Position numbers and translations under genes: made by a program. Positions 13,531 to 62,068 of a DNA stretch of 64,000 nucleotides are shown piece by piece (position 1 is the first letter of the stretch; every line of letters starts with the position of its first letter). Origin of the DNA: Parcubacteria group bacterium Gr01-1014_31 (GTDB lineage Bacteria > Patescibacteriota > Patescibacteriia > Buchananbacterales > GWA2-38-13); the NCBI GenBank assembly GCA_007376135.1, contig VMFR01000001.1, positions 142,554 through 206,553 of the forward strand, in the 5' to 3' direction. The notes below the pieces were generated by a model. It did no database searches. It saw only the letters and a list, made by a program, of their open reading frames with translations, and had not been told where the DNA came from.

Positions 13531-13767
13531 CTAATAACGGAATACGATACGTCCCTTGGTTAGATCGTAAGGGCTGATCTGCACCTTGACCCGGTCACCG
13601 GGAAGGAGCTTGATGCGATTCATCCGCATCCGCCCCGACAAGTGCCCCAAAATCTCGGTCCCATTCTCCAGTTTGATCCGGAAATTCGCCGCCGGAAGAA
13701 GCTCAGTAACTTCCCCAACCGCCTCAAGAAAATCCTTGCTTGCTGAGGTGGGCGTCGATGTGGGCAT
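13531..13767 (-). CDS. infA: translation initiation factor IF-1
   Basis: S1-like fold; [42 protein letters not shown]. Confidence 0.9.
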
Positions 13768-22208: not shown

Positions 22209-24047
22209 TCAGCTGAAGCGGATCACGCGGCCAGGCGCCAGCGGCTGCGGTCCGCTGGTCGGCGGGGTGGGAGGTTGCGGACGGACCGGCACAGCCGGGG
22301 ACGGCTCGGTCGAAAGTACGCGCTTGGGCGACTCTGGGGTGGTTAACGGCCGCTCGTTGGCTTCCGGCTTGCGCCGGCGCCCGGAGAACGAAACGGGTTC
22401 GGCGCGCAGCGCTTCCGCCAAGCTGATCTCCTGGATGGGCTGCGGCACCACTTCCTGAGCCTCGCCGCTCTGGAGCGCGTTTTCGCGCTGAAGTTTGAAA
22501 CATTTCTTGCAATACACTGGGCGGATGCCGTCGGGTTTGAAACCGACCTCGACCGGAGTGCCGCATTCATAGCAATCCACCATGAAGCGCGGTTTTACCG
22601 GCACGGCGGGCGCAGCCGCAGGTTCGGTATTTACCCGCGGACGCGCCGTTGTCCGTTCGACGGGCGCCTCCGCCGAAACCGGAGTTCTGACGGCGCGGAT
22701 GACCGGGACAGCCGGGGCAGCCTCGACCCTCTCTCCCTCCTCGTCGTCCGCGACCATGCCGCTCCAACGCGCGATCTTGTCCTCGACGATCTCGCGCGGT
22801 TTACCGTACCGTTCTCGAGTGGCATGGATGATCTTATCGACGTTCCCGGCCTCCTTGGCCCAGTGTTCCAGTGGCGGCAAGGTGGTCGCGGAGAACGGAT
22901 TAGACGCGACCCCGTCGATCATGAGTTTCAGGTAAATGTCGTACTTAGCGAGGTTGACCAAATCCTCCTCATCGAAATAGGGAGCAAATTCCGTGGCCAT
23001 GAACTCCGCATCACCGGCGCCAACGCGGAACGACATGATCGTGCCGACGTTACCGAACACCGCCGCCTGGATCTCTTCCTCGACCTGCTCGACGTACTGG
23101 TGCGCAATGATGAGATTTAACCGGTATTTGCGCGCTTCGGACAAAATGTTCGCAAAACTTTCCGTAGCGAAATTTTGGAATTCGTCGACGTAGAGATAAA
23201 AATCCTTGCGTTCGCGTTCGGGAATGTCGATGCGGCTCATCGCCGCCAGCTGGATCTTGGTGATCATCATCGCCCCCATCAAAGCGGAGGCGTCTTCGCC
23301 CAGGCGGCCCTTGGAAAGGTTCATGATGAGGATCTTCTGGTTATCCATCACCTCGCGGATGTCAAAACTCGTGCGTACCTGCCCGACAATGTTGCGAATG
23401 AGTGCGGTCGACAAGAACTGCCCGACCTTGTTCTGAATGGGGGCAATGGCCTCGGCCTGGAAACGGTCAGGGTATTTAGAATACTCGTCGACCCAGAATG
23501 AGCGCACCACCGGGTCCTTGATCTTGGCGATGACCTTCTTGCGGTAATTCTTGTCTACCAGAATGCGCAGCACGCCCAGCAGCGTGCTGCCGGGGTAATC
23601 AAGGAGCGCCAGGATCGCGTTGCGCAGCACGTACTCGAGCCGCGGCCCCCAGGAGTCGGCCCACAATTTTTTGAACACACCAACCAGGCCAGAGGCGGTA
23701 AGATGTTTATGCTGTTCATTCGCTGACTCCATCACGTTCAGCGAGATGGGAAAATCCATGTCAGCGGGGTTGAAGTAAACGACATCGTTGATGCGGCTGG
23801 TCGGTATGTATTTGATGATCTTCTCCGCAAAATCACCGTGCGGATCCACCACTGCGACACCCTCCCCATTGATGATGTCCTGCACCACCATGTTCTCCAA
23901 TACCGTTGATTTCCCCATGCCGGTCTTTCCGATCAGGTACATATGCCGCCGGCGGTCGTCTTTCTTGATACCAAACTTCAACTTCTGGTTACGGAAGTTG
24001 GTCATCCCGAAGTACACGATACGCTGTTCAGATGGAAGGGGGTTCAT
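22209..24047 (-). CDS. soluble P-loop ATPase of the TraD/VirD4/HerA (FtsK-like) superfamily with a C-terminal zinc ribbon
   Basis: Walker A LIGKTGMGKST, Walker B FYLYVDEFQNF, then NLIIAHQYVEQ; no TM helices. A P/A/V-rich linker precedes a C-terminal CxxC...YCxxC motif (DCYECGTPVEVGFKPDGIRPVYCKKCF). The start overlaps the upstream gene's stop as ATGA. Confidence 0.6.
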   Translation of the reverse strand: MNPLPSEQRIVYFGMTNFRNQKLKFGIKKDDRRRHMYLIGKTGMGKSTVLENMVVQDIINGEGVAVVDPHGDFAEKIIKYIPTSRINDVVYFNPADMDFPISLNVMESANEQHKHLTASGLVGVFKKLWADSWGPRLEYVLRNAILALLDYPGSTLLGVLRILVDKNYRKKVIAKIKDPVVRSFWVDEYSKYPDRFQAEAIAPIQNKVGQFLSTALIRNIVGQVRTSFDIREVMDNQKILIMNLSKGRLGEDASALMGAMMITKIQLAAMSRIDIPERERKDFYLYVDEFQNFATESFANILSEARKYRLNLIIAHQYVEQVEEEIQAAVFGNVGTIMSFRVGAGDAEFMATEFAPYFDEEDLVNLAKYDIYLKLMIDGVASNPFSATTLPPLEHWAKEAGNVDKIIHATRERYGKPREIVEDKIARWSGMVADDEEGERVEAAPAVPVIRAVRTPVSAEAPVERTTARPRVNTEPAAAPAVPVKPRFMVDCYECGTPVEVGFKPDGIRPVYCKKCFKLQRENALQSGEAQEVVPQPIQEISLAEALRAEPVSFSGRRRKPEANERPLTTPESPKRVLSTEPSPAVPVRPQPPTPPTSGPQPLAPGRVIRFS

Positions 24048-31214: not shown

Positions 31215-31820
31215 CTATTCCTGCACGGTGACGGAGCGCAGCACGACGTCTTCCGTCGGTCGGTCATTCGCGTCCGTCGCCACCTTTTCAATGGCCGCAA
31301 CCACGTCCATTCCCTCCACGACCATTCCGAAGTTCGTGTGCTTGCCGTCCAACCAATCGGTCGCCGCCTTGGTCACAATGAAGAACTGACTGCCGTTGGT
31401 ATTCGGGCCGGCGTTCGCCATCGCCAGCGACCCGCGCACTAATTTATGCTCGTTGATCTCATCCTCGAAACGGTAGTCCGGTCCGCCGGTACCCCAGCGC
31501 GATTTGGCGGCCAGATCCTTGCTCAGCGGATCGCCGCCCTGGATCATAAAATCGCTAATGACGCGGTGAAACCGCGTGCCGTCGTAAAAGCCTTCCCGGG
31601 CCAGTTTGACGAAATTGTCGACGGTCTTTGGCGCGTCCGAGCGGTAGAGCTCGACCACGATCGTCCCCTTGCTGGTAACCAATGTTGCACGCATAGTTGT
31701 GGCAATTGGCGTCGGCGTCGGAGTGGGCGTCACCGCCACCCCGCCGGCCGGCAGATTAGAATTTTTTACGCAGCCGGCGATGAGGACGGCCGCAATGAGA
31801 AGAAATGATCGTGGTCGCAT
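31215..31820 (-). CDS. peptidyl-prolyl cis-trans isomerase, cyclophilin type, lipoprotein
   Basis: Lipobox LIAAVLIAGC. Cyclophilin motifs FHRVISDFMIQGGDP and SLAMANAGPNTNGSQFFI. Confidence 0.85.
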   Translation of the reverse strand: MRPRSFLLIAAVLIAGCVKNSNLPAGGVAVTPTPTPTPIATTMRATLVTSKGTIVVELYRSDAPKTVDNFVKLAREGFYDGTRFHRVISDFMIQGGDPLSKDLAAKSRWGTGGPDYRFEDEINEHKLVRGSLAMANAGPNTNGSQFFIVTKAATDWLDGKHTNFGMVVEGMDVVAAIEKVATDANDRPTEDVVLRSVTVQE

Positions 31821-31965
31821 AGTATTCTGTATTAACTATCCCCAAGCCATACACCGTTTCACCCTTGACGGGCCTCACCCTGCCCATCTCGCGTTTTTGA
31901 ACAGTGCAATATTGGGGATAAAGTAATAAACTGCCTTTTCTGACCGTCGATGCACGCGCTTTGTC

Positions 31966-31990
31966 CCGCTCCATCCTGGGGGGAAATCGA
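31966..31990 (-). pseudogene. tRNA-Gln 3'-fragment (T-arm and acceptor remnant)
   Basis: The minus strand reads ATGAAGGTTCGATTTCCCCCC. It matches the 3' part of the adjacent tRNA-Gln but carries a 3-nt deletion. Confidence 0.4.
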
Positions 31991-32007
31991 ACCTTCATAC
32001 TGGGCTC

Positions 32008-32103
32008 TCCCACACATTGCTGGGGGGGAAGGAATCGAACCTTCATTCGCAGCTCCAAAGGCTGCTGTCCTGCCATTAGACGACCCCCCAGCAATGTGTG
32101 GGA
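32008..32103 (-). repeat. 13-bp perfect inverted repeat (CCCACACATTGC.. / ..GCAATGTGTGGG) immediately flanking tRNA-Gln
   Basis: 32008-32020 is the exact reverse complement of 32091-32103; the two arms abut the tRNA ends. Confidence 0.7.
32020..32090 (-). tRNA. tRNA-Gln (anticodon UUG)
   Basis: Minus strand: TGGGGGG acceptor, D-arm, anticodon stem GCAGC/GCTGC with loop CTTTGGA, T-arm GAAGG-TTCGATT-CCTTC, CCCCCCA acceptor, discriminator G; CCA not encoded. Confidence 0.7.
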
Positions 32104-32199
32104 CCTTGCCCGACTCCGCGCCTGCCCCGTCGTATGACGGGGCCCTGTTTTACCCCACACCTTTCGACCTTAAATAGCAGAGCTACTTTGCTTGCCTAC

Positions 32200-32270
32200 C
32201 CGCGGGAGCAGAACTCGAATCTGGATTCACGGCTCCAAAGGCTGCTGTCCTGCCCTTAGACGATCCCGTA
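32200..32270 (-). pseudogene. degenerate tRNA-Gln(UUG) copy
   Basis: D-arm and anticodon arm are near-identical to tRNA-Gln. The acceptor, anticodon and T stems each carry one mismatch. No flanking inverted repeat. Confidence 0.4.
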
Positions 32271-32359
32271 GTTATGGAAGCGATAGTACTAAAGGTCAAA
32301 AGGTGTGGAGCGAGGACGACCCCCCCCAGGACGGGACGCAACGTCCACCGGTACCGGCA

Positions 32360-32587
32360 TCAACTGAACCGCACCGCGTTATAGATCTTCCTGGCAGCAA
32401 AGTACATGACGAAGGCGAAAAAGACTCCCAGATACCCGAAGGTGCCGACCTTGAGCGGCAGCGAAATGTGTTGGCCGACGATGAAGTTGACGACTTCAAG
32501 CACTAAGAGCACGCCCATCAGGATCATCACGATGAAGATGAGCATGACCACGGTCAGAATGGTTTCCAAAAGCCGGCCGGCGTGCAT
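32360..32587 (-). CDS. hypothetical small membrane protein (75 aa, two TM helices)
   Basis: Hydrophobic ORF in the gap between the tRNA locus and ftsX; no recognisable family. Confidence 0.3.
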   Translation of the reverse strand: MHAGRLLETILTVVMLIFIVMILMGVLLVLEVVNFIVGQHISLPLKVGTFGYLGVFFAFVMYFAARKIYNAVRFS

Positions 32588-32637
32588 AGGTACGAAGTGG
32601 TAGCGTAGCGGGCGGGGGGCGAAACGTCAATCCCGCC

Positions 32638-33561
32638 TCAAACTTTCAGGTAACGGCGCACGGCGAACACCGATCCCACCATATTTAGCGCCGACATTCC
32701 CAGCAGTTGCGAACCGAAGATGGCCACAAAGTTCTCGCGGAAATAGCCAGCCAGATCGAGCGGTACGCCGGTAAAGAAATCCTGAAGATACGGCTGCACC
32801 GCATTCAGCAACGGGAATGTGACCGCCACAGCGAGTCCGGTCGCGCACAGCGCGTACAGCACGCCCTCCAGCACGAACGGCGCGGTGATGAACGCGTTGG
32901 ACGCGCCGACCAGCTTCATAATGCCGATCTCGTCGCGGTGCGTATAGATCGCGACGCGGATGGTGTTGAACACGATCAGCGTGGCGATCAGGACGAACAG
33001 CGCCGATATCGCGATCCCCGCCTGGTTAATGCGGTCGGCGATCAGTCGGATCTCGTTGATCGTACGCTGGTGGTCCTTATAGTTCTCGTCGCTGACCAGA
33101 TCGCGGTACGGCGAATGGTTGAGCACCTGGATGATCTCCGGGTAGTCCGAGGGGTGTTGTGCGGTCACCACCAGCGTCGCTCCCAGCGGGTTGTCGCCCA
33201 GCTCCTCCAGAGTCTCCAGGATGGCAGCGTCACGGGCGTGCCGCTGGCGGAATTCTTTCATCGCATCGTCGGCGGTCACGAGCGTGATGGCGGTCACCTG
33301 TGAAAGCTTGCCCAAGTAGTCCTGCACCTCTTTGACCTTCGGCGTGTCCACCACCGGGTCAAAGTAAATGCTGACGTCGATCTTTTGCTCGAGGGAGGTA
33401 ACGGCGGAATCGGCGACGACATTGAGCGCCAGCAGCGCATTGACCGTCAACGACGCCAGCGCGATGATGCTGACGGTCACCAGCGACAGCCAGAAATTGC
33501 GCCAGAACCCTTGCCAGGCGAATTTAATGACGCGGTAGATGGTCACGAGCATATGCTTCAA
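32638..33561 (-). CDS. ftsX: cell division permease FtsX
   Basis: Four TM helices, a periplasmic domain and the FtsX C-terminal motif. Its start overlaps the ftsE stop. Confidence 0.85.
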   Translation of the reverse strand: MKHMLVTIYRVIKFAWQGFWRNFWLSLVTVSIIALASLTVNALLALNVVADSAVTSLEQKIDVSIYFDPVVDTPKVKEVQDYLGKLSQVTAITLVTADDAMKEFRQRHARDAAILETLEELGDNPLGATLVVTAQHPSDYPEIIQVLNHSPYRDLVSDENYKDHQRTINEIRLIADRINQAGIAISALFVLIATLIVFNTIRVAIYTHRDEIGIMKLVGASNAFITAPFVLEGVLYALCATGLAVAVTFPLLNAVQPYLQDFFTGVPLDLAGYFRENFVAIFGSQLLGMSALNMVGSVFAVRRYLKV

Positions 33562-34244
33562 CTCAACCGATAGCGCCCAACCGCCTCATCGGAGGTCAGT
33601 GTGCCCTGATCAAGTACCAGCACACGGCGCCGGATCTGATTAACCCTCCCCTCGTCATGGCTGACAAACAGCACGGTCGTACCGATCTGGTTGATCTTCA
33701 GCAATAACTCGATGATCTCTTGCGAGGTGGCCGTATCCAGGTTGCCGGTCGGCTCATCCGCCACCAGGATCTTGGGACCGTGGGCGAGCGCCCGTGCGAT
33801 CGCGACGCGCTGCTGCTCGCCGCCGGAAAGGTGGCGCGGGAAACGGTCGTGCTTATCGGCCAACCCGACGATCTTGAGCACCTCGGGGACGATCTTGCGG
33901 ATACGCGAGGGGCGCGCTCCGATCACCTGCATCGCGAATGCGACATTCTCAAAAACGGTCTTCTTTTGCAATAATTTGTAATCCTGGAAAACGACACCGA
34001 TCTGCCGCCGAAGGTAAGGCACTTCACGAGACCGGATGTGCGTAATGTCCCAACCGCCGACGACCACCTGCCCTTCGCTCGCCCGCTCTTCGGCGGTCAG
34101 GATCTTGACCAGCGTGGTTTTTCCGGTGCCGCTCTTGCCAACGATCGAGATGAATTCACCCGCCAAAACCTCGAAAGAAACGTTGGCCAAAGCGACCGTG
34201 CGCTCAGGGAAATAGATTTTGGATACGTTGCGGAAGATGATCAT
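33558..34244 (-). CDS. ftsE: cell division ATP-binding protein FtsE
   Basis: ABC ATPase: [37 protein letters not shown]. Confidence 0.9.
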
Positions 34245-34266
34245 GGGTTTTGAGGAACGCGCACGG

Positions 34267-34296
34267 CTTGAAATTTCTACCCCAGCGTGCGTATAC
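34267..34296 (+). promoter_or_regulatory. sigma70 promoter TTGAAA-18-TATACT for the tRNA Gly/Thr cluster
   Basis: -35 TTGAAA (34267-34272) and -10 TATACT (34291-34296); a second TATACT follows 2 nt later. Confidence 0.5.
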
Positions 34297-34357
34297 TGGT
34301 ATACTGCTGTCCCAACGGCATCGGGTCAAGGGATAAGTCTATTCCCGGCCGCCACGC

Positions 34358-34395
34358 GCGGGATTAGTACCATGGTAGTACGTCGGCTTCCCTCG
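34358..34395 (+). pseudogene. tRNA-Gly-like 5' half (acceptor, D-arm, anticodon stem-loop start)
   Basis: GCGGGATTAGTACCATGGTAGTACGTCGGCTTCCC parallels the intact tRNA-Gly 5' half and then loses similarity. Confidence 0.4.
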
Positions 34396-34511
34396 CCCCT
34401 CACCTTTACGATTGGCTCTCTGCGGGTGTAGTACAGTGGTAGTATGCTAGCTTCCCAAGCTAGAGATGGGAGTTCGATTCTCCTCACCCGCTCCAGGTAA
34501 AGGTGTGGGGG
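34396..34511 (+). repeat. imperfect 14-bp inverted repeat (CCCCTCACCTTTAC / GTAAAGGTGTGGGGG) enclosing tRNA-Gly
   Basis: 34396-34409 against the reverse complement of 34497-34511, one mismatch. The repeat brackets the intact tRNA-Gly. Confidence 0.6.
34423..34495 (+). tRNA. tRNA-Gly (anticodon CCC)
   Basis: GCGGGTG acceptor, anticodon stem CTAGC/GCTAG with loop TTCCCAA, T-arm GGGAG-TTCGATT-CTCCT, discriminator U, CCA encoded. Confidence 0.8.
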
Positions 34512-34522
34512 CAAGCAAAAGA

Positions 34523-34548
34523 CGCGAGTTCGATTCTCGTATCCCGCT
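34523..34548 (+). pseudogene. tRNA 3' half (T-arm plus acceptor 3' strand ATCCCGC) complementary to the upstream 5' half
   Basis: GCGAG-TTCGATT-CTCGT-ATCCCGC-T; the acceptor strand is the exact complement of GCGGGAT at 34358. Confidence 0.4.
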
Positions 34549-34599
34549 CGCTGCCGCGGTTCGGCAGGATATTCGCGCGGTTGCCTTAGGCCGAAGTAC

Positions 34600-34703
34600 T
34601 TTCACATCTTGCCTTGCCGGAGTAGCTCAGCCGGTAGAGCAGTGCTTTCGTAAAGCAAAGGTCGAGGGTTCGAGTCCCTCCTCCGGCTTGGCAAGATGTG
34701 AAA
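34600..34703 (+). repeat. perfect 14-bp inverted repeat (TTTCACATCTTGCC / GGCAAGATGTGAAA) enclosing tRNA-Thr
   Basis: 34600-34613 is the exact reverse complement of 34690-34703. The arms lie 2 nt and 1 nt from the tRNA ends. Confidence 0.7.
34616..34688 (+). tRNA. tRNA-Thr (anticodon CGU)
   Basis: GCCGGAG acceptor, D-arm GCTC/GAGC, anticodon stem GTGCT/AGCAA with loop TTCGTAA, T-arm GAGGG-TTCGAGT-CCCTC, CTCCGGC acceptor, discriminator U. Confidence 0.75.
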
Positions 34704-34884
34704 GATGCCGATCATTGTGGGTTTCCCGCCGTTCTCCTCTTTCGGTTATTGAAATATAGGGAGGAGGGACCCCGCCGACGGCGGTGGCGACTCCCACCTT
34801 CGGCTCCAGACAACTCCGTAAATAGGAAAGATCGGCGCCCGCAGCAGCCGATTTTTCATATCCGCTGCCCTCCGGAAACTGGAA

Positions 34885-36105
34885 CTACGGCGCGTACCGG
34901 TGGATGTTCATGCTGCGCAGGATCTCCCCCAGCCGTTGTTCAAAATAGTCGACCGGGGTCACGGTGATCACGCGTAGCCGCAGCCGCAGGTCGCTCCCCT
35001 CCCCGACCGATTCCTCGCGCAACAGCAGCACATACCCTTGGGCGGTGCGCATCGGCGGCGATACCTCCCCGTCCGAAATCTTTTCCGCCGCGGCAAAGAT
35101 CTGAACATCAAGGTCGTCGCGGCCGCGATACCCCAAATCTCCGCCAATTGCACGGCTATCATCGCGATTCACCTCGCTCGCGGTCGCCGCGAAACTGCTG
35201 GCGCCCTCCGCGAGCGACTGATGGATGGATTTGAGCCGTACGGCGGCCGCTTCCCAGGCCTGCGGGTCTTCCCAGAGCTTGGCGCGGACCGCGAGCTCCA
35301 GCAGGTAGGGCCTTACCAAGCGCTCGGAAAAATCATCCAACGACCAACCATAAAAATTCTCCCGCACGCTCTGCTCAAGCCGCTCCCTCGATCCGCTCTG
35401 CGCGATCAACTGCTGCAACTGCGCGTTCACGGCGGCTGCACCGACCTGCACCTGGTACTGTTCGGCCAGGCGGTCGATCGCCGCCTGCCCGACGAAACGA
35501 GTAAATGCCTGCCGCCGCAGTTCACCGTCGCCTTGCGGTCTGCCGGTCCGCACCGATGACCGCCGCAGCATTTCCACGTCGCGCAAATAATCATCCAGCC
35601 AGTATACCCGACCGTCGGCGTCCACGGCGGGGAGCGGCAGGACCCTCGCCAGCGCCGCCACGGCCCAGTTGCTCCAGCCGAATCGGTACGCGCCGACCAG
35701 AACTACGGCGAACAACATGGTTACGAGCGCAGCAAAAATCGACACGGCCAAAAGAGGAGTCCGCCGCCGTCTCTTGGCGGTTTGTGCCGGCCGCCGCGGC
35801 GGTCGGGTCGCTCTCCTTGCTCTTCCCGGCGGCAGCGCCAAAGGAAGCCTCGGGATGATCAACTTCAGCGCACGTGGAACCGACTTTTGCGGCGGAGCGG
35901 CCGCAGCCGCTGCGGTGGTAGTCGTTTTCTTTTTTGGACGCGTCGGGCGCTTGGGTACGCTCGCCTTGACCGCCGACGGCGCGGGCTTGCCGGCAACGAT
36001 CTTGGGGCGTTGCCGGTCCCGCTCGATCCACGCCAGCACCTCACGCCGCATCGCCGACAGTTCGTTTTCGGAAAATGTTTTTCCGTTCGAGGATAGATCG
36101 GGCAT
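34885..36105 (-). CDS. membrane-anchored PpiC/parvulin-type peptidyl-prolyl isomerase (PrsA/SurA-like)
   Basis: Basic, P/A-rich N-terminus, one TM (LLAVSIFAALVTMLFAVVLVGAY), and the parvulin signature GGDLGYRGRDDLDVQIFAAAEKISDGEVSPPMRTAQGYVLLL. Confidence 0.55.
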   Translation of the reverse strand: MPDLSSNGKTFSENELSAMRREVLAWIERDRQRPKIVAGKPAPSAVKASVPKRPTRPKKKTTTTAAAAAAPPQKSVPRALKLIIPRLPLALPPGRARRATRPPRRPAQTAKRRRRTPLLAVSIFAALVTMLFAVVLVGAYRFGWSNWAVAALARVLPLPAVDADGRVYWLDDYLRDVEMLRRSSVRTGRPQGDGELRRQAFTRFVGQAAIDRLAEQYQVQVGAAAVNAQLQQLIAQSGSRERLEQSVRENFYGWSLDDFSERLVRPYLLELAVRAKLWEDPQAWEAAAVRLKSIHQSLAEGASSFAATASEVNRDDSRAIGGDLGYRGRDDLDVQIFAAAEKISDGEVSPPMRTAQGYVLLLREESVGEGSDLRLRLRVITVTPVDYFEQRLGEILRSMNIHRYAP

Positions 36106-36536: not shown

Positions 36537-39266
36537 TCAATGGTGCGGCGAGAGCACGTTTCGCTGGAAGATCCGACGCTGCCACAGCAGATACTTCATG
36601 ATCTCGATGACGCCCAGCACCGCGAGCGCTAAAACGCCGATCATCACCCAATCGGCGGGCAGCAGCGGAACCGTGCGAAAAACTTTCTGGAAATGGGGCT
36701 CGTACACGGCCAACATCTGCAGCGCCAGTCCGAATCCCACCGAACCCAATAGCCACAAATTTCCCAGCATCGTCTGCTGGAAGATCGAATGGCGCAGGCT
36801 GCGCAAGGAAAAAACATAGATCAGCGAAACGAGCGCCAGCTGCGTGAAGATCAGCGTCCGAAGGTAATCAATGGGAAGCCCGCGCCGGTGTAACACGAAC
36901 AGCAGCGCAAACAGCGGCACGGTGATAGCGACGCTGATGACCGCGATCATCGCTTTTGCCTCATGGCTGATGACCGGCTCGCGTTTATCGCGCGGCGGCT
37001 CGTCCAACACCTCTGGTTCGCCGGGTTCCAAGGTGAGCGCCATGGCCGGCAGGCTGTCGCAAATAAGATTGATCCACAAGATTTGCGCGGGCAGCAACGG
37101 CAGCGGCAACCCGGAAAGCATCGCTGCAGTTACCAGCAGCACTTCCGCCATGCTGTCCGAAAGCAAATAAAGGACGGCCTTGCGGATATTGTCGTAGATC
37201 ACTCGCCCTTGCCGCACGACCGCGACGATGGTATTAAAATTGTTCTCCAGCAAGATGAGGTCGGCGGTTTCTTTGGCCACATCGGTCCCCGAATTCAGGG
37301 CAATGCCGATGTCGGCAGCCTTGAGCGCCGGCGCGTCGTTCACCCCATCTCCGGTCATTGCGACGACCGCGCCTCGGCGCTGCCATGCCGTCACAATGCG
37401 CAGTTTATGCTTGGGCGTGACGCGCGCGAAAATATCGATGCTGCGGATGCGCCGCGTGAGCTGCTCATCGGTCATTCCGTCCAACGCCGAACCGTCGACG
37501 GCCCGATCGGCCGTCGCGGCCATGCCCATTTCTTTGGCGATGGCAACGGCCGTCAGCCGGTGGTCGCCGGTGATCATCACCGTCCGAATGCCGGCGCGTT
37601 GCGTGAGGGAAAACGCGTTCTTGGTCTCCTCGCGGAGCGGGTCCTTCAGGCCGATAAACCCGGTAAATATCAGCCCCGACGGCGGATCACTAAAGTCATC
37701 ATCGGCGCTCAGGCGCCGATACGCCAACCCCAACAATCGCAACCCGTGCCGACTGTGCTCTTCGTACGCTGCCGTCAGTCTCCGGCGCAGCGCCGCGTCC
37801 ATCGGTTTGACCTTGCCGGCCACTTCGGCGAACGACGAGAATTGCAGCACCCGCTCCGGGGATCCCTTGCAGTACATCATGCGCGCATTCTCCACCTGGT
37901 GCAGTGTGGCCATGTATTTAGTTTCCGAACGGAACGGGATCTCATCCAGACGCGGCTCGGCACGGTTCAGCTCGTCTGGGCGCGCACCGACCTGAGCGGC
38001 CGCCAAGAGCAGCGCCGTCTCGGTCGGATTCCCCAGCACCCGCCAATGGCGGAGCTCTTCGTCGGGATTTTCGACCACCGCGTCGTTGCACAACGCGGCT
38101 ATCTTCAGCACCAGTAAGCGTTCCGCCATGCGCGGGTCCTCGACGATCCGGTGAAAATCGTAGTGGTCGTCGGCGGTGATGACGCGTGATACGCGCATCA
38201 CGCCCTCGGTGATTGTCCCGGTCTTGTCCGTACAGATGATGGAGGTGCTCCCGAGGGTTTCCGTGGCCGCCAGACGGTGCACCAGCGCCCCCTGTTTCAA
38301 GATGGCGCGCATGCCGATCGCCAAAATGACGGTCACGATGACCAACAGCCCTTCAGGGATGGCCGAGACTGCCAACGCGACGGCCATATACAGCATGCTG
38401 TCCTCCGGATGGCCATCCGGAGAGAGGAACGGACGGCCCTGCAGCATGCCGATCAACGCCACGATCGCGGCAATGACGCAGACGACGACCGTGAGTTGCT
38501 TGCCGAGTTGCTCCAATTTCAACTGCAACGGGGTCGGCGGCTCACCGGTTTCTCGGACCAACATTGCGATCTGCCCCAATTCGGTTTCGGCGCCGGTGGC
38601 GCAGACGACCGCCGTACCCTCGCCCGAAGCGATCGTCGTGCCGAGGTACAGCATATTCTCGCGGTCGGGCAGCGACGCGCCGGGCGCTAACGTGGTGACC
38701 GTCTTGGGTGACGCCGCGGATTCCCCGGTCAACGGGGCTTCCACCACCGTCAGATCGATGGACTGCAAAAGGCGCGCATCAGCCGGAACGCGATCCCCGG
38801 CGCGCACCACAACGACGTCGCCGGGCACCAGTACATCCGTCGGTACCGCGATCTCGCGTCCGCTGCGCAACACGCGAGCCTTGAAGGTCACTAGCCGTCG
38901 TAATTGCTCGAACTCCTTGGTTGCCTTCCATTCCTGCAGGAAGCCGACGACGGTGTTGATCGCGATGACCGCGCCGATGACGAAAAAATCAAGCCAGTGC
39001 CGCAACACCAAGGTCAGCGCCAGCGCAAAAAGCAAAATGCCGATGACGGGGCTGCGCAGTTGACCGAGAAGAATGACCAGGCCGCCCAAACGCTTCTCCC
39101 GCGGCAGAACGTTGGGACCATGGCGGTGCAACCGGCGGCGTGCCTCCTCGGCGCCCAGTCCGCGGGCGGTGGTATGCAATTTCCGCAGGATCGCCGATTC
39201 CGCGGCGTGATGCCACATCGAAGAATTGGCGGCGGCTGTCGACATACGGACAGTATACCACACCAC
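36537..39266 (-). CDS. P-type cation-transporting ATPase (P2-type, Ca2+/Mg2+-like)
   Basis: DKTGTITEG phosphorylation motif, MITGDHRLTA, VAMTGDGVNDAPALKAADIGIA, and about 10 TM helices. Confidence 0.85.
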   Translation of the reverse strand: MVWYTVRMSTAAANSSMWHHAAESAILRKLHTTARGLGAEEARRRLHRHGPNVLPREKRLGGLVILLGQLRSPVIGILLFALALTLVLRHWLDFFVIGAVIAINTVVGFLQEWKATKEFEQLRRLVTFKARVLRSGREIAVPTDVLVPGDVVVVRAGDRVPADARLLQSIDLTVVEAPLTGESAASPKTVTTLAPGASLPDRENMLYLGTTIASGEGTAVVCATGAETELGQIAMLVRETGEPPTPLQLKLEQLGKQLTVVVCVIAAIVALIGMLQGRPFLSPDGHPEDSMLYMAVALAVSAIPEGLLVIVTVILAIGMRAILKQGALVHRLAATETLGSTSIICTDKTGTITEGVMRVSRVITADDHYDFHRIVEDPRMAERLLVLKIAALCNDAVVENPDEELRHWRVLGNPTETALLLAAAQVGARPDELNRAEPRLDEIPFRSETKYMATLHQVENARMMYCKGSPERVLQFSSFAEVAGKVKPMDAALRRRLTAAYEEHSRHGLRLLGLAYRRLSADDDFSDPPSGLIFTGFIGLKDPLREETKNAFSLTQRAGIRTVMITGDHRLTAVAIAKEMGMAATADRAVDGSALDGMTDEQLTRRIRSIDIFARVTPKHKLRIVTAWQRRGAVVAMTGDGVNDAPALKAADIGIALNSGTDVAKETADLILLENNFNTIVAVVRQGRVIYDNIRKAVLYLLSDSMAEVLLVTAAMLSGLPLPLLPAQILWINLICDSLPAMALTLEPGEPEVLDEPPRDKREPVISHEAKAMIAVISVAITVPLFALLFVLHRRGLPIDYLRTLIFTQLALVSLIYVFSLRSLRHSIFQQTMLGNLWLLGSVGFGLALQMLAVYEPHFQKVFRTVPLLPADWVMIGVLALAVLGVIEIMKYLLWQRRIFQRNVLSPHH

Positions 39267-39346
39267 AAATTTCAGCCTTGGGACAACTGCGTCGATTGCA
39301 AATTAGGCGAAAATATGCTATGCTCAACGCAATTACGTACCACCGA

Positions 39347-39422
39347 GGGTCCATAGCTCAGTTGGTAGAGCAGCTCCCTTTTAAGGAGACGGTCGCAGGT
39401 TCGATCCCTGCTGGACCCACCA
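39347..39422 (+). tRNA. tRNA-Lys (anticodon UUU)
   Basis: GGGTCCA acceptor, anticodon stem GCTCC/GGAGA with loop CTTTTAA, T-arm GCAGG-TTCGATC-CCTGC, discriminator A, CCA encoded. Confidence 0.8.
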
Positions 39423-39430
39423 CCAATTCT

Positions 39431-40237
39431 ATGTTCACGGCCATTTGGGACACCATCGTTTTCAAACCGCTGTTCAACTTCCTCATCTTCCTGTACCAGC
39501 GGTACACCGGCTACAACCTGGGAATTGCGGTGGTCTACATGACGCTGCTGTTGCGGATCGTTTTGCTGCCATTATCGGTCATGGCCGAACAGGGCAAAGA
39601 ATTCTACCGCCGCATTCACACCAAGATCTCGGAGGCTCAGCGCGATTTCGCCGATGACCCGGTCCGCCAGAAGCAGGCCATCCGCGAGCTCCTGAAGCGG
39701 CATAAGATCCGCCCTTGGACACGGGTGGTGGTGCTGTTGTTCCACATCCTTATTTTGATCGCCTTGTACCAGGTGTTCGTTGGTGGTCTGACCCGCCAAA
39801 AATTCGGTGCCCTCTACCCTTCGGTCGCTGCCCCGGACTTCATCAACACGAACCTGTTCTGCTTCGACTCGGTGCACAAGGTCGGCTGCCTGGATATCGC
39901 ACAGTCGAATTTGTGGTTCGCCGCGGTCGTGGCGATCGTCCTCTTCATCGAGATCACACTCTCCCAGCGCGGCTTGCGCAGCAAACTTTCCCAACCGGAG
40001 ATCGTCTACCGCTTCCTTTTTCCGGCGTTCACCTTCGTCGCGCTGGCGTTATTGCCCTCGGTGAAGTCGGTCTTCATTTTGACCTCGCTGCTGTTTTCTA
40101 TTATTATTAGTCTCGGGGGCACGGTATTTTTTTCCGCCGGACGCCGGCGCGAAGCGCAGGCGGAGATTAAAAAAACCGCGCCGCAAACCGCCGATGACCC
40201 GCTAGCGAACAACTACTATGGCCGACAGCCTCGATAA
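39431..40237 (+). CDS. yidC: membrane protein insertase YidC (short form)
   Basis: 268 aa, five TM helices, conserved YidC/Oxa1 core (LLPLSVMAEQGKEF...RELLKRHKIRPW). Start placed at ATG 39431; the ORF-track start lies inside tRNA-Lys. Confidence 0.8.
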   Translation: MFTAIWDTIVFKPLFNFLIFLYQRYTGYNLGIAVVYMTLLLRIVLLPLSVMAEQGKEFYRRIHTKISEAQRDFADDPVRQKQAIRELLKRHKIRPWTRVVVLLFHILILIALYQVFVGGLTRQKFGALYPSVAAPDFINTNLFCFDSVHKVGCLDIAQSNLWFAAVVAIVLFIEITLSQRGLRSKLSQPEIVYRFLFPAFTFVALALLPSVKSVFILTSLLFSIIISLGGTVFFSAGRRREAQAEIKKTAPQTADDPLANNYYGRQPR

Positions 40238-61584: not shown

Positions 61585-61595
61585 TTTTCCGCTGT

Positions 61596-62030
61596 GGATA
61601 GCCAGGCGGTCGCTCCGATACACAATCGGAGAGGAAAGTCCGAACACCCTGGTTGTCAATTGACAATCTGTCGCGGTAGTGGGTAACGCCCACCCGGGCC
61701 GCAGCAATGCGGCTTGAGGACCAGTTCCACAGAGACCATACTAACCCCGAAGGGGTTATCCCGAGCGACGCCCGCAAGGGCGGAGTCGAGGGATCTCCCA
61801 TTCAGGGCAAAACGTGAAAAGTGTGGCGAGGTCATTGGCTACAAGTGGGAATTCCCGGTAGCTGACGGCTACGCTACTCCGCGCCCAGCGATGGGACGCG
61901 CGTGGTAAACTCTACCTGGTGCAATGCCAAGTTTGGTCGGCAGCATGAGGCCGCCAGCAATGACGGTCCCAGAGAGATGATCGCCACCCGCCTTCGGCGG
62001 GGACAGAATTCGGCTTACCGGCTATCTGCA
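61596..62030 (+). ncRNA. rnpB: RNase P RNA (bacterial type A)
   Basis: P4 hallmark GAGGAAAGTCCG, the 3' ACAGAATTCGGCTTA element, P1 pairing GGATAGCCAGG/CCGGCTATC, and GGTAACGCC (P6/P7 region). Confidence 0.8.
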
Positions 62031-62035
62031 GCAAT

Positions 62036-62068
62036 AAAAAACCCCGCCTCAGCGGGATTTTTTATTGC
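62036..62068 (+). terminator. rho-independent terminator after rnpB (extended palindrome)
   Basis: GCAATAAAAAA-CCCGC-CTCA-GCGGG-ATTTTTTATTGC. Confidence 0.65.

What the first reader, a model, noticed from the sequence alone, without database searches (positions are those of the whole stretch)
34600..34703. tRNA-Thr(CGU) enclosed by a perfect 14-bp inverted repeat abutting the acceptor stem
TTTCACATCTTGCC lies 2 nt before the tRNA 5' end and GGCAAGATGTGAAA lies 1 nt after the discriminator. Together with the acceptor stem this would give a co-axial precursor helix of about 21 bp. This is the third tRNA in the window with such a design, which argues for a dedicated processing pathway (RNase III-like cleavage followed by RNase P/Z) or a regulatory precursor structure.
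Basis: seen in the sequence. Interest (0 to 1): 0.55.

Follow-up and report, generated by a model that had tools for sequence, protein, structure and literature searches.

The report
Hairpin-bounded replacement tRNA gene cassette
The inverted repeat around this tRNA-Thr gene is real; it marks the two ends of a small hairpin-forming insertion that carried a new tRNA-Thr gene into the bacterium's older tRNA-Thr gene and so replaced it, a recurrent way of turning over tRNA genes in Patescibacteria that I could not find described.

Summary
tRNA-Thr(CGU), 34616-34688, has no encoded CCA. It is enclosed by a perfect 14-bp repeat (15 bp with C34599/G34704), 2 nt and 1 nt from the tRNA ends.

The repeat is not an ancestral processing design. 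The window comes from a Patescibacteria (CPR) chromosome. A relative (L006) has an intact tRNA-Thr with CCA and no repeat at the orthologous site. In the window that older gene survives as three pieces (34590-98, 34715-23, 34788-808) around the repeat-bounded gene.

tRNA-Gly, tRNA-Gln and a dead tRNA-Gln copy in the window show the same nesting. So do about 25 tRNAs in other Patescibacteria genomes and metagenomes.

The stems form one covarying family, consensus (CTTGY)CCCNCACCTTT. Its members also occur with non-tRNA content between genes, and one sits as an intervening sequence in helix 25 of a 23S rRNA gene.

Best reading: this is an IVS/MITE-like palindromic cassette that destroys a resident tRNA gene and supplies its replacement. 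Its stem probably serves as an RNase III-type processing helix, but that is inferred, not shown. How the cassette moves and how it finds the cognate gene are unknown.

The parts
34268..34297 (+). Promoter-like site (TTGAAA-18-TATACT). It is the only one upstream of the tRNA-Gly/tRNA-Thr cluster.
   Evidence: 10 of 12 matches, and none between the two cassettes. The site is conserved in the relatives. Function is inferred.
34358..34392 (+). 5' half (positions 1-36) of an older tRNA-Gly(CCC) gene, interrupted after the anticodon.
   Evidence: Joining it to 34513-34548 in silico gives a cloverleaf tRNA-Gly(CCC). The cloverleaf is perfect in L005/L086; in the window two anticodon-stem pairs are broken.
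34396..34409 (+). 5' arm of the repeat around tRNA-Gly (CCCCTCACCTTTAC).
   Evidence: I3: 14 nt, 93%; family motif.
34422..34495 (+). Functional inner tRNA-Gly(CCC), with encoded CCA.
   Evidence: 69.9 bits. It is only 77% identical to the gene it interrupts.
34497..34510 (+). 3' arm of the repeat around tRNA-Gly (GTAAAGGTGTGGGG).
   Evidence: I3.
34513..34548 (+). 3' half (positions 37-73) of the older tRNA-Gly(CCC) gene.
34590..34598 (+). Piece 1 (positions 1-9, GCCGAAGTA) of the older tRNA-Thr(CGU) gene. The leader before it is homologous to the leader of the intact L006 gene.
   Evidence: window CGCGGTTGCCTTAG+GCCGAAGTA versus L006 CGCGGCTGCCTTAA+GCCGAAGTA.
34599..34613 (+). 5' arm of the repeat in the finding (C+TTTCACATCTTGCC); left terminus of the inserted cassette.
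   Evidence: It aligns without gaps to the family consensus, and every difference is compensated in the 3' arm.
34616..34688 (+). Functional inner tRNA-Thr(CGU), no encoded CCA.
   Evidence: 68.3 bits. It is 86% identical to the older gene type, with compensatory differences in the acceptor and T stems.
34690..34704 (+). 3' arm of the repeat in the finding (GGCAAGATGTGAAA+G); right terminus of the cassette.
34715..34723 (+). Piece 2 of the older tRNA-Thr (TTGTGGGTT: end of the variable region, T stem and T54-T55).
   Evidence: by comparison with L006 GGTTGTGGGTTCGACTCC. Short, so weaker on its own.
34724..34787 (+). Hairpin-rich insertion in the T loop (55/56) of the older tRNA-Thr. Relatives carry a further 36-nt hairpin inside it.
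   Evidence: presence/absence of TCACCGCATCCTGCGGGATCCCGCCAGCGGCGGTGA between 34776 and 34777.
34788..34808 (+). Piece 3 of the older tRNA-Thr (CGACTCCCACCTTCGGCTCCA: T loop to 3' end, including CCA).
   Evidence: 21 of 21 identical to the 3' end of the intact L006 tRNA-Thr.
32008..32103 (-). tRNA-Gln(UUG) cassette: 13-nt arms (32091-32103 and 32008-32020) continuous with the acceptor stem, giving a perfect 20-bp helix.
   Evidence: I1: 20 nt, 100%.
32153..32310 (-). Older, dead cassette: a tRNA-Gln(UUG) pseudogene (32200-32270) between arms CTCCACACCTTTT... and ...AAAGGTGTGGGG.
   Evidence: 28.8 bits, just under the cut-off; I4: 22 nt, 86%.
32315..32328 (-). Outermost tRNA-Gln 5' fragment (TGGGGGGGGTCGTC).
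   Evidence: It pairs with the 3' fragment at 31975-31996.
31975..31996 (-). Outermost tRNA-Gln 3' fragment (GAAGGTTCGATTTCCCCCCAGG).
39347..39422 (+). tRNA-Lys(UUU) with CCA and without a repeat: the internal control. The relative L005 has a half-cassette here.
61594..62033 (+). RNase P RNA (bacterial class A): the 5'-maturation enzyme is present.
   Evidence: 145 bits.

Best explanation
The two repeat arms are the terminal inverted repeats of a small, non-coding, hairpin-forming insertion of about 105 nt: arm, tRNA-Thr, arm.

The insertion landed in the resident tRNA-Thr(CGU) gene of a Patescibacteria chromosome. It destroyed that gene and supplied the replacement copy.

It belongs to a family of IVS/MITE-like palindromic elements (stem consensus CCCNCACCTTT / AAAGGTGNGGG, with covarying variants). 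These elements interrupt structural-RNA genes. When they interrupt a tRNA gene they are seen only with a complete tRNA of the same anticodon in their loop.

Shown:
- insertion into an older gene, with empty and filled sites in relatives;
- family membership of the stem;
- recurrence at many tRNA types and in many lineages;
- ongoing turnover.

Inferred:
- The cassette has no promoter of its own. It is transcribed from the old operon promoter (34268-34297) within one precursor that also contains the old gene pieces.
- The 15-bp stem, stacked on the acceptor stem, makes the new tRNA an independent folding unit. It is cut by RNase III as IVS stems are.
- RNase P then trims the 5' end, a 3' nuclease trims the 3' end, and the CCA-adding enzyme finishes the tRNA.
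- Only insertions that carry a substitute for the gene they break, in the sense orientation, survive in a genome with single-copy tRNA genes. That would explain why the nesting is always cognate.

The moving enzyme, the intermediate (DNA or RNA) and any active targeting are unknown.
For: 1. Empty versus filled site. L006 (FtsE 83% identical, same gene order) has an intact tRNA-Thr with CCA and no repeat. The window has that gene's leader plus positions 1-9 immediately before the 5' arm, and its last 21 nt including CCA 84 nt after the 3' arm.

2. Same nesting elsewhere.
- tRNA-Gly: removing the insert in silico restores a perfect cloverleaf in L005/L086. The same holds for tRNA-Thr in L051 and L032.
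- tRNA-Gln: two successive cassettes sit inside an outermost gene.
- Metagenome contigs: Ala, Pro, Met, Trp, Val, Arg, Ile and Cys.

3. Rapid turnover. L165 and L310 (UvrB 86% identical) share 7 syntenic tRNAs. Pro and Phe are plain in L165 and nested in L310. Val and Ala are nested in both, with different inner genes.

4. One stem family.
- The Thr arm differs from the Gly arm at 6 of 14 positions, and all six are compensated.
- Across 11 stems not chosen by pattern, 93.7% of cells pair, 9 of 13 pairs change on both sides, and 0 of 500 shuffles reach this.
- The N position is complementary in 37 of 40 metagenome copies, with all four pair types (my tally of the sequences printed).

5. The motif is tied to tRNA loci: 22 of 25 hits lie within 300 nt of a tRNA, which is 7.5% of the bases.

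6. The same termini enclose non-tRNA hairpins between genes and an insertion in the helix 25 loop of a 23S rRNA gene.

7. No symmetric copy appeared among 100 viral-contig matches, against about 40 of 120 metagenome matches.

8. The junctions are identical in five independent assemblies.

9. There is one promoter-like site upstream and none inside the cluster. The stems persist in the 466-nt fold.

10. The repeat arms diverge more slowly than adjacent spacer between L005 and L086: 2 of 33 versus 21 of 113.
Against: - No transposase, integrase or reverse transcriptase lies in the 64-kb window, and no autonomous partner element was found.
- There is no consistent target-site duplication: 7 nt in L032, none in L051, and target deletions elsewhere.
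- Insertion only into the cognate gene is explained by a selection argument, not by evidence.
- A tRNA-sized target is tiny, so some form of targeting is needed and is unexplained.
- In some cases the inner and outer genes are identical (L165 Ile, L006 Gly). That fits local duplication or gene conversion as well as it fits import.
- The outer tRNA-Gly halves are more conserved than neighbouring debris (3 of 71 versus about 19%), which is unexpected for dead DNA.
- RNase III cleavage, co-transcription and the processing order are untested.
- The stem in L005 tRNA-Gly is split by a 115-nt insertion, so the helix is not indispensable everywhere.
Confidence: 0.7

Rival explanations
1. Native processing design: the leader and trailer evolved in place to pair. 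The lineage would mature its tRNAs through a dedicated double-strand-specific cut, or use the helix to regulate precursor fate. The old-gene pieces would be unrelated debris.
For: - The helix abuts the acceptor stem within 0-3 nt in most cases.
- There is strong covariation.
- The arms evolve more slowly than the spacer.
- Several tRNAs on one contig carry the helix (L165, L193).
- CPR retain rnc (PMC12641178).
Against: - The helix is absent from the orthologous gene in L006 and from 39 of 43 orthologous tRNA-Thr genes. Overall 10 of 122 tRNAs have it.
- tRNA-Lys in the same window lacks it.
- The arms coincide exactly with the insertion boundaries inside an older gene.
- The same stem sequence occurs around non-tRNA hairpins and in 23S helix 25.
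- The helix is broken in L005 tRNA-Gly.
Confidence: 0.1
2. Intron-like or split-gene reading: the interrupted outer tRNA is still functional. The repeat helix brings its halves together, the inner tRNA is cut out by RNase P/Z, and the halves are trimmed and ligated or work as a two-piece tRNA. One locus would then yield two tRNAs.
For: - Outer genes restore perfect cloverleaves after in-silico removal of the insert (L051 with CCA, L032, L005/L086 Gly).
- The outer Gly halves are conserved: 3 of 71 versus about 19% in adjacent debris, with substitutions only in loops.
- Insertions cluster in the D, anticodon and T loops, as archaeal introns do.
Against: - Many outer genes are plainly dead. The window's old tRNA-Thr lacks positions 10-46, L006 Gly lacks the T loop, L310 Ile and Pro have decayed 5' pieces, and the window Gly has two broken anticodon-stem pairs.
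- Every interrupted gene seen is accompanied by an intact cognate copy.
- No bulge-helix-bulge geometry appears at the junctions (by inspection).
- No bacterial enzyme set for this reaction is known.
- ARAGORN with introns allowed found no tRNA present only in interrupted form (a weak test).
Confidence: 0.07
3. Scars of integrase-mediated islands or of homologous or illegitimate recombination with imported DNA. On this view the fragments are att-type duplications and the complementarity of the flanks is incidental.
For: - 3' tRNA fragments downstream of intact tRNAs, including tandem arrays (L012 Met x3, L012 Lys, L052 Gln), resemble att-site duplications.
- The L005 tRNA-Lys half-cassette has one seamless junction inside the tRNA.
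- The inner genes differ from the outer ones, as imported DNA would.
Against: - 5' fragments and complete inner genes are not what tyrosine-integrase integration produces.
- The inserts are 100-250 nt, with no integrase nearby.
- The conserved, covarying terminal repeat family cannot be incidental.
Confidence: 0.08
4. Assembly artefact: a chimeric join of strain variants at a repetitive tRNA locus.
For: Contig ends fall inside this locus in two assemblies (L085, L088). Metagenome assemblers do break at variable tRNA loci.
Against: - The junctions are identical in the window, three ENA assemblies, a Logan assembly and a GenBank MAG of a species only about 87% identical.
- The same architecture occurs in dozens of unrelated contigs.
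- The old pieces show graded decay.
Confidence: 0.01

Closest known systems
Intervening sequences (IVS) of bacterial 23S rRNA genes (helix 25 and helix 45; Salmonella, Leptospira, Campylobacter, Coxiella and others)
   Same: - A short insertion in a structural-RNA gene whose ends pair into an extended stem.
- Sporadic distribution, thought to be horizontally spread.
- Excised by RNase III (established knowledge; summarised in PMC11270868).
- One member of this stem family sits exactly in the helix 25 loop of a 23S gene (L123).
   Different: - Known IVSs carry at most a small ORF, not an RNA gene.
- They fragment an rRNA that still works in pieces.
- Here the host tRNA gene is killed, and the loop of the element carries a complete replacement tRNA.
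MITEs and REPIN-type palindromic repeats (non-autonomous elements bounded by terminal inverted repeats)
   Same: - Small and non-coding, with terminal inverted repeats.
- Many related copies.
- Presence/absence polymorphism between close relatives.
- Nested insertions.
   Different: - No partner transposase was found, and there is no fixed target-site duplication.
- The arms vary within one genome with compensating changes. That points to pairing, rather than a protein-binding sequence, as the conserved property.
- The cargo is an essential gene identical in function to the target.
tRNA-targeting genomic islands and prophages (tyrosine integrases; the element restores the 3' part of the tRNA gene)
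   Same: The element inserts into a tRNA gene and carries the sequence needed to keep a functional copy, leaving a tRNA fragment behind.
   Different: - Those elements are kilobases long and encode an integrase.
- They duplicate only the 3' segment and recombine at a fixed sublocation.
- Here a whole tRNA gene is carried, both 5' and 3' fragments of the old gene remain, the positions vary, and the element is about 100 nt.
RNase III processing stems around 16S and 23S rRNA in bacterial rRNA operons
   Same: The leader and trailer of a stable RNA pair into a helix of 20 bp or more, and that helix is the first cleavage site.
   Different: Those stems are ancestral and conserved at orthologous loci. 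This one is absent from orthologues and arrived with an insertion.
Archaeal disrupted tRNA genes (introns at non-canonical positions, split and permuted tRNAs; intron transposition in Thermoproteales)
   Same: tRNA genes are interrupted at many positions, largely in loops. Helices formed by the flanking sequences bring the halves together, and related insertions spread among tRNA genes.
   Different: - Archaeal cases depend on bulge-helix-bulge motifs and the splicing endonuclease, and the interrupted gene is the functional one.
- Here the host is a bacterium, no such motif is seen, and the functional gene is the one inside the insertion.
Rickettsia palindromic elements
   Same: Palindromic selfish repeats that insert inside functional genes, including RNA genes, in reduced genomes.
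   Different: They are tolerated inside the host gene product and carry no replacement gene.

Membership tests
Leader-trailer RNase III processing stem (rRNA-operon type) | The 5' and 3' flanks of the stable RNA pair into a duplex of about two helical turns. | tested here: met
   15 bp, plus a 2x2 loop, plus the 7-bp acceptor stem for Thr; a continuous 20 bp for Gln.
Leader-trailer RNase III processing stem (rRNA-operon type) | Inherited and conserved at the orthologous gene in related genomes. | tested here: not met
   Absent in L006. Only 4 of 43 orthologous tRNA-Thr(CGU) genes have it.
Leader-trailer RNase III processing stem (rRNA-operon type) | Cleaved by RNase III, and rnc is present in the genome. 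| not testable with these tools
   No rnc in the window. CPR are reported to retain rnc (PMC12641178). Cleavage needs an experiment.
rRNA-type intervening sequence (IVS) | An insertion within a structural-RNA gene, typically at the tip of a helix. | tested here: met
   A family member sits in the helix 25 loop of 23S. The tRNA cases lie inside older tRNA genes, mostly in loops. The Thr cassette itself follows position 9 of the old gene.
rRNA-type intervening sequence (IVS) | The ends pair into an extended stem that is excised without religation. | tested here: inconclusive
   The stem is shown. Excision was not tested.
MITE (TIR-bounded non-autonomous transposon) | Terminal inverted repeats, small size, no coding capacity. 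| tested here: met
MITE (TIR-bounded non-autonomous transposon) | Multiple related copies, and empty versus filled sites. | tested here: met
   Four copies in the window and about 40 in metagenomes. Empty/filled sites appear in L006 versus the window and in L165 versus L310. A 36-nt hairpin differs between strains.
MITE (TIR-bounded non-autonomous transposon) | A target-site duplication of fixed length. | tested here: not met
   7 nt in L032, none in L051, and deletions of target sequence in the window Thr, L006 Gly and L191.
MITE (TIR-bounded non-autonomous transposon) | A related autonomous element or transposase in the genome. | not tested
   None in the window. The rest of the genome is not available.
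tRNA-targeting integrative island | An adjacent integrase gene, and a direct repeat of only the tRNA 3' segment at the far end of a kb-sized island. | tested here: not met
   No integrase. The insert is 100-250 nt, 5' fragments are present, and the inner gene is complete.
Archaeal-type bulge-helix-bulge intron or split tRNA | A bulge-helix-bulge motif at the exon/insert junctions. | tested here: not met
   By inspection of the junction sequences: the stems are continuous for 11-15 bp, with no 3-4-3 geometry. No dedicated search tool was run.
Archaeal-type bulge-helix-bulge intron or split tRNA | The interrupted gene is the functional, often the only, copy. | tested here: not met
   An intact cognate gene lies inside every interrupted one seen, and several outer genes are decayed. 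Whole-genome tRNA sets were not available.
Group I intron in a tRNA gene (reported for Patescibacteria; cited in PMC12641178) | A catalytic core recognisable by the Rfam Intron_gpI model; more than 200 nt. | tested here: not met
   No hit at E up to 10 in 31800-35000. The same model did find introns in the L123 23S gene.
Intrinsic terminator | A G+C-rich hairpin followed by a U tract. | tested here: not met
   No terminator-like site at the repeat. The 3' arm is followed by GATGCCG.

The most novel reading that the evidence does not exclude
These cassettes are a previously unrecognised class of selfish element that works by 'destroy and replace'. A hairpin element targets the loops of folded stable RNAs or of their genes. 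It kills a single-copy essential tRNA gene and makes itself indispensable by carrying the substitute. It then spreads and is serially replaced across Patescibacteria. This would be a natural counterpart of engineered cleave-and-rescue drives.

It may have an RNA-level life cycle. Three observations hint at this: RNA-stable C(UUCG)G tetraloops in the accompanying hairpins, G.U-compatible extensions of the stems, and a preference for tRNA and rRNA loops.

A still bolder variant, not excluded, is that some interrupted outer genes are still used, as processing handles or as joined two-piece tRNAs. That would explain why the outer tRNA-Gly halves are conserved.
Probability: 0.3. Interest if true: 0.9.

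Novelty: new variant of a known kind. Interest (0 to 1): 0.78.

Why it matters
If correct, this gives a concrete mechanism for the rapid turnover and horizontal replacement of tRNA genes in the largest uncultured bacterial radiation.

It also shows a way for a tiny non-coding element to become unlosable: by swapping itself for an essential gene.

It links rRNA intervening sequences, which have no known origin, to a family that also moves tRNA genes.

There are practical consequences:
- tRNA halves, pseudo-tRNAs and contig breaks at tRNA loci in CPR genomes are expected products of this process. They will mislead tRNA counts and genome-completeness estimates.
- The stems are predicted RNase III substrates. 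They could be used to map processing in organisms that cannot be grown.

Tried and rejected
- **Brute-force in-silico splicing** (delete every interval around each tRNA and rerun ARAGORN). It was far too permissive, producing hundreds of chimeric 'tRNAs'. I replaced it with explicit joins at the boundaries seen in alignments.
- **Look-up of the neighbouring PPIase gene**. It failed because I gave minus-strand coordinates shifted by a codon; one search corrected this.
- **First metagenome pattern**. The accepted pattern was loose, so only matches symmetric on both strands were treated as real. The viral scan served as the chance control.
- **Literature searches** for nested or repeat-flanked tRNA genes in CPR. 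They found nothing on this. The cited preprint on group I introns in Patescibacteria tRNA genes is not held.
- **Link between repeats and missing CCA.** 7 of 10 repeat-flanked versus 42 of 112 other tRNAs lack CCA. The trend is not significant (p = 0.09).
- **G.U versus A.C mismatches** in the stems as a test of RNA-level selection. 9 versus 4 is suggestive, not significant.
- **ARAGORN with introns**. It gave only false positives.
- **Ideas considered and dropped:** integron attC sites (no R'/R'' consensus), DGR retrohoming (differences between inner and outer genes are not adenine-specific), fold-back repair palindromes (the arms are unrelated to adjacent tRNA sequence), similarity to the IS5 terminal repeat (wrong orientation), and a retron.
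- **Mechanical ORFs** 34466-34759 and 34698-34967, which overlap the tRNAs, are treated as spurious.
Full report
**1. The observation**

ARAGORN and Rfam place tRNA-Thr(CGU) at 34616-34688 on the plus strand. It ends at the discriminator and has no encoded CCA. TTTCACATCTTGCC occupies 34600-34613, two T's before the tRNA. GGCAAGATGTGAAA occupies 34690-34703, one T after the discriminator. C34599/G34704 adds a 15th pair.

The region folds into the 15-bp stem, a 2x2 U/U internal loop and the acceptor stem: -61 kcal/mol, z = -6.5. The stem survives when the whole 466-nt putative co-transcript is folded.

When trailers are permuted among 132 tRNAs, perfect leader/trailer runs of 12 or more occur in about one pairing per thousand. 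The Thr and Gln repeats are the two best short-range inverted repeats in the 64-kb window.

The other tRNAs in the window:
- tRNA-Gln (32020-32090, minus strand) has 13-nt arms continuous with its acceptor stem, a perfect 20-bp helix.
- tRNA-Gly (34422-34495, with CCA) has a 14-nt repeat with a 12-nt spacer on the 5' side.
- tRNA-Lys (39347-39422, with CCA) has none.
- A decayed tRNA-Gln(UUG) at 32200-32270 (28.8 bits) is also bracketed by a 22-nt repeat.

**2. The organism**

The window is a bacterial chromosome of about 60% G+C. It carries housekeeping genes and a class A RNase P RNA.

Relatives of its FtsE are Patescibacteria, mostly Candidatus Uhrbacteria. Its DnaB occurs verbatim in anammox-reactor metagenomes.

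The order FtsE, tRNA-Gly(CCC), tRNA-Thr(CGU), with tRNA-Gln(UUG) nearby, is conserved across dozens of these genomes. This gave orthologous loci for comparison.

**3. The repeat bounds an insertion**

In L006 (FtsE 83% identical) the orthologous tRNA-Thr is intact, has CCA and has no flanking repeat.

In the window, the sequence just upstream of the 5' arm is CGCGGTTGCCTTAG + GCCGAAGTA. This is the L006 leader (CGCGGCTGCCTTAA) plus positions 1-9 of the L006 tRNA.

Downstream of the 3' arm lie TTGTGGGTT (34715-34723) and then CGACTCCCACCTTCGGCTCCA (34788-34808). The latter matches the last 21 nt of the L006 gene, CCA included, at 21 of 21 positions.

Between those two pieces, in what was the T loop, sits a 64-nt hairpin-rich insertion. 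In sister strains it carries a further 36-nt hairpin.

So the old gene survives as three pieces, and the repeat arms are the outer ends of what was inserted. The new tRNA-Thr is 86% identical to the old type. It differs by compensating changes in the acceptor and T stems, so both had evolved as working tRNAs.

**4. The same holds for the other tRNAs in the window**

Around tRNA-Gly lie the two halves of another tRNA-Gly(CCC), split after the anticodon: 34358-34392 and 34513-34548. Joining them in silico gives a cloverleaf. It is perfect in the relatives L005 and L086; in the window two anticodon-stem pairs are broken. The inner gene is only 77% identical to this outer one. The outer one is 96% identical to the tRNA-Gly of L006.

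At the Gln locus an outermost 5' fragment (32328-32315) and 3' fragment (31996-31975) enclose two successive cassettes. The older cassette is dead.

The junctions are the same in five independent assemblies. That rules out a chimera.

**5. It recurs widely**

In the Patescibacteria loci fetched through FtsE, nested cognate tRNAs occur in several lineages:
- L051: the outer tRNA-Thr is intact with CCA and interrupted at 23/24.
- L032: the outer halves overlap by 7 nt.
- L043, L023 and L006.

tRNA fragments are common next to tRNAs there. 15 of 128 tRNAs score 13 or more against their own flanks, against 0 of 400 random comparisons. Fragments are commoner beside repeat-flanked tRNAs: 5 of 16 versus 10 of 112, p = 0.02. 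This count is conservative, because foreign inner genes align poorly to the remnants.

A metagenome scan for the Gly-type stem found about 40 symmetric copies of CCCNCACCTTT...AAAGGTGNGGG. No symmetric copy appeared among 100 chance matches in viral contigs.

The contents of the symmetric copies fall into two groups:
- A tRNA: Ala, Gly, Pro x3, Arg, Val x2, Trp, and Met with a near-symmetric stem. Most are visibly nested in remnants of a tRNA with the same anticodon.
- A non-tRNA sequence of about 85 nt that folds into a long hairpin and lies between genes.

On those contigs, further tRNAs not selected by the pattern carry variant stems:
- L165 Ile: ATGGTACAGC
- L165 Ala: CCCGCACTTTC
- L193 Cys: CCCCGCCCTTTT

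L165 is Patescibacteria by its UvrB.

**6. Turnover is fast**

L165 and L310 (UvrB 86% identical) share seven syntenic tRNAs:
- Pro(UGG) and Phe(GAA) are plain genes in L165. In L310 they are cassettes nested in remnants that match the L165 genes.
- Val(UAC) and Ala(UGC) are nested in both genomes but with different inner tRNAs. In L310 the Ala locus is a cassette inside a cassette.
- Ile is nested in both, and the outer 5' piece is decaying in L310.

L005, about 87% identical to the window in DNA, has two further differences:
- a half-cassette at tRNA-Lys: a 13-nt 5' fragment, then GGCTTGCCCCACACCTTTTGG..., then the gene; the window lacks this;
- a 115-nt insertion splitting the 3' arm at tRNA-Gly.

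**7. One stem family, conserved as a pairing**

The Thr arm (TTTCACATCTTGCC) aligns without gaps to the Gly arm (CCCCACACCTTTAC). The six differences are all matched by complementary differences in the 3' arms.

For 11 stems that were not chosen by pattern:
- 93.7% of cells pair, against 78% in shuffles;
- 9 of 13 pairs change on both sides, in 26 cells;
- no shuffle of 500 and no slid register comes close.

There is a caveat. The stems were recognised because they pair, so the percentage paired is partly built in. The shared register and the double changes are not built in.

Three different variants coexist in one window. That argues that pairing, rather than one protein-binding sequence, is what is conserved.

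The motif is tied to tRNA loci: 22 of 25 hits lie within 300 nt of a tRNA, which is 7.5% of the bases. Many of these hits come from strains of one species.

**8. Link to rRNA intervening sequences**

In L123 a member of the family (CCCTCACCTTT...AAAGGTGAGGG, about 100 nt) lies inside a 23S rRNA gene. It sits exactly in the loop of helix 25 (model positions 583/584) and extends the native CCCC/GGGG helix.

This is one of the two classical IVS sites. Elsewhere, IVSs there are removed by RNase III without religation (established knowledge). Short non-intron insertions at these sites have been noted in CPR (PMC11270868). CPR are reported to keep rnc (PMC12641178).

This is the basis for inferring that the tRNA-flanking stems are RNase III substrates. 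It remains an inference.

**9. How it probably works**

One promoter-like site (34268-34297) precedes the outer tRNA-Gly, and none lies between the cassettes. By eye, a hairpin with a T run follows the old tRNA-Thr 3' end at about 34833-34859; the scan did not call it.

The likely product is a single precursor containing, in order:
- old Gly 5' half;
- stem, tRNA-Gly, stem;
- old Gly 3' half;
- old Thr piece 1;
- stem, tRNA-Thr, stem;
- debris;
- old Thr 3' end.

In such an RNA the old halves are near-copies of parts of the new tRNAs and could mispair with them. The stems make each new tRNA a closed folding unit.

A cut in the stem would free short, meltable flanks. RNase P (its RNA gene is at 61594-62033) would then trim the 5' end, and a 3' nuclease the 3' end. 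CCA addition would follow, which Thr and Gln need.

All inner genes seen have the orientation of the outer gene. That fits a cassette with no promoter of its own.

**10. Why always the cognate gene?**

I can offer only an argument. These genomes are thought to carry mostly single-copy tRNA genes (general knowledge of reduced CPR genomes, not checked here). An insertion into a tRNA gene would then be lethal unless the insert supplies the same tRNA in the sense orientation.

Cargo-less hairpins are indeed seen only in already dead copies, between genes, or in 23S helix 25, where fragmentation is tolerated.

A 75-bp target is too small for random insertion, however. Some targeting to tRNA and rRNA genes, or to their RNAs, is needed.

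Insertion points cluster in the D, anticodon and T loops. Many of the small hairpins carry C(UUCG)G tetraloops. This hints at recognition of folded RNA or extruded DNA hairpins, and possibly at an RNA intermediate.

No transposase, integrase or reverse transcriptase lies in the window.

**11. What does not fit**

Between L005 and L086:

| Segment | Differences |
|---|---|
| Spacer plus debris | 21 of 113 |
| Outer tRNA-Gly halves | 3 of 71 (P = 0.004 against 15%) |
| Thr arms plus junction nucleotides | 2 of 33 |

All three substitutions in the outer Gly halves are in loops.

Slow change in the arms fits a functional stem. Slow change in a supposedly dead gene does not fit. It could mean any of the following:
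- The outer shell still serves as an RNase P/Z handle.
- The outer gene is still used.
- Gene conversion keeps it similar.
- The whole nested allele spread recently between lineages. The variants are mosaic, which favours gene flow.

I could not decide between these.

**12. Verdict**

The finding is real and more than chance.

The stem is the signature of a mobile, IVS/MITE-like cassette that replaces tRNA genes. I found no description of this in the searchable literature. Absence from that library is not proof of novelty.

Noticed in passing
window 32200-32270 (minus strand), with arms at 32287-32310 and 32153-32176: A decayed tRNA-Gln(UUG) pseudogene (28.8 bits, just under Rfam's cut-off) with its own 22-nt inverted repeat of the CCCCACACCTTT type. 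It lies 110 nt upstream of the functional tRNA-Gln.
   Followed up: yes
window between 34776 and 34777; L086, L087, L089 and L005 in alignment A2: A 36-nt hairpin (TCACCGCATCCTGCGGGATCCCGCCAGCGGCGGTGA) is present in sister strains and in L005. It is absent from the window and from L085. This is a recent insertion or deletion inside the debris of the old tRNA-Thr.
   Followed up: partly
L005 1916-1960 (upstream of tRNA-Lys c1840-1915), compared with window 39330-39347: L005 has a 45-nt insertion the window lacks: a 13-nt copy of the tRNA-Lys 5' end followed by GGCTTGCCCCACACCTTTTGGACCTCAAAGCC. It carries the left arm of the cassette family, and no right arm follows the tRNA. It looks like a cassette reduced by recombination between inner and outer copies.
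   Followed up: partly
L005 about 6837-6950 (minus strand), within the 3' arm of the tRNA-Gly repeat: An A+T-rich insertion of about 115 nt splits the 3' arm of the tRNA-Gly stem in L005. The stem is therefore not intact in every lineage that keeps the cassette.
   Followed up: no
L140 6486-6596, L152 4010-4118, L135 4591-4698, L096 3335-3444, L146 2225-2331, L186 2632-2738, L123 4620-4728: Elements with the same termini but no tRNA share a conserved core, about AAGGCGAAGCCGCCTWWCGGCTCCG, in either orientation. They fold into long hairpins, and three (L096, L143, L152) are flanked by direct GTCAAC repeats. No Rfam family matches the core. What it is remains unknown.
   Followed up: partly
L310 near 12034-12460 and 13660-13760; L154 about 530-600; window 34724-34787; L052 18000-18220; L012 2480-2690 and 8700-8760: Small hairpin modules are inserted in the T loops (positions 55-58) of dead tRNA copies, and they fall into recurring types. 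One type is two tandem hairpins with UUCG and GUAG loops (TCTCCCTTCGGGAGATCTCCCGTAGGGAGA). Another is CGNCCGGTCGAATGACCGGNCG. A third is CCTGCCCGCC...GGCGGG. The CCTGCC[CT]GCC motif is enriched near tRNAs (10 of 19 hits).
   Followed up: partly
L012 2760-2985 (downstream of tRNA-Met c2983-3057) and L052 17900-18220 (downstream of tRNA-Gln): There are tandem arrays of partial tRNA copies. L012 has three 67-nt units, each ending in the last 27 nt of tRNA-Met including CCA. L052 has repeated copies of tRNA-Gln positions 19-76, riddled with hairpin insertions.
   Followed up: no
L123 1379-5470 (minus strand): This 23S rRNA gene carries two group I introns (Rfam 80 and 52 bits) in addition to the helix 25 insertion. 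That is typical of CPR rRNA genes.
   Followed up: no
window 61594-62068: The class A RNase P RNA gene is followed immediately by a 17-nt, 94% inverted repeat with flanking A and T runs (62031-62068). It looks like a bidirectional terminator.
   Followed up: no
window 39140-40237 and 39347-39422: The mechanical ORF for the YidC homologue runs across tRNA-Lys. The real start is probably the ATG about 10 nt after the tRNA's CCA, so tRNA-Lys sits directly in front of yidC.
   Followed up: no
window 34358-34392 and 34513-34548, compared with L005 and L086: The halves of the interrupted tRNA-Gly differ at 3 of 71 positions between L005 and L086, all in loops. Adjacent spacer and debris differ at about 19%. 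This is unexplained conservation of a supposedly dead gene.
   Followed up: partly
window 22209-24047 and 7564-9690: There is a TrwB-like coupling-protein/HerA-type ATPase with a treble-clef zinc finger. There is also a large CotH-kinase protein with lamin-tail and chitobiase domains. G+C dips to 0.51 at 8-10 kb.
   Followed up: no
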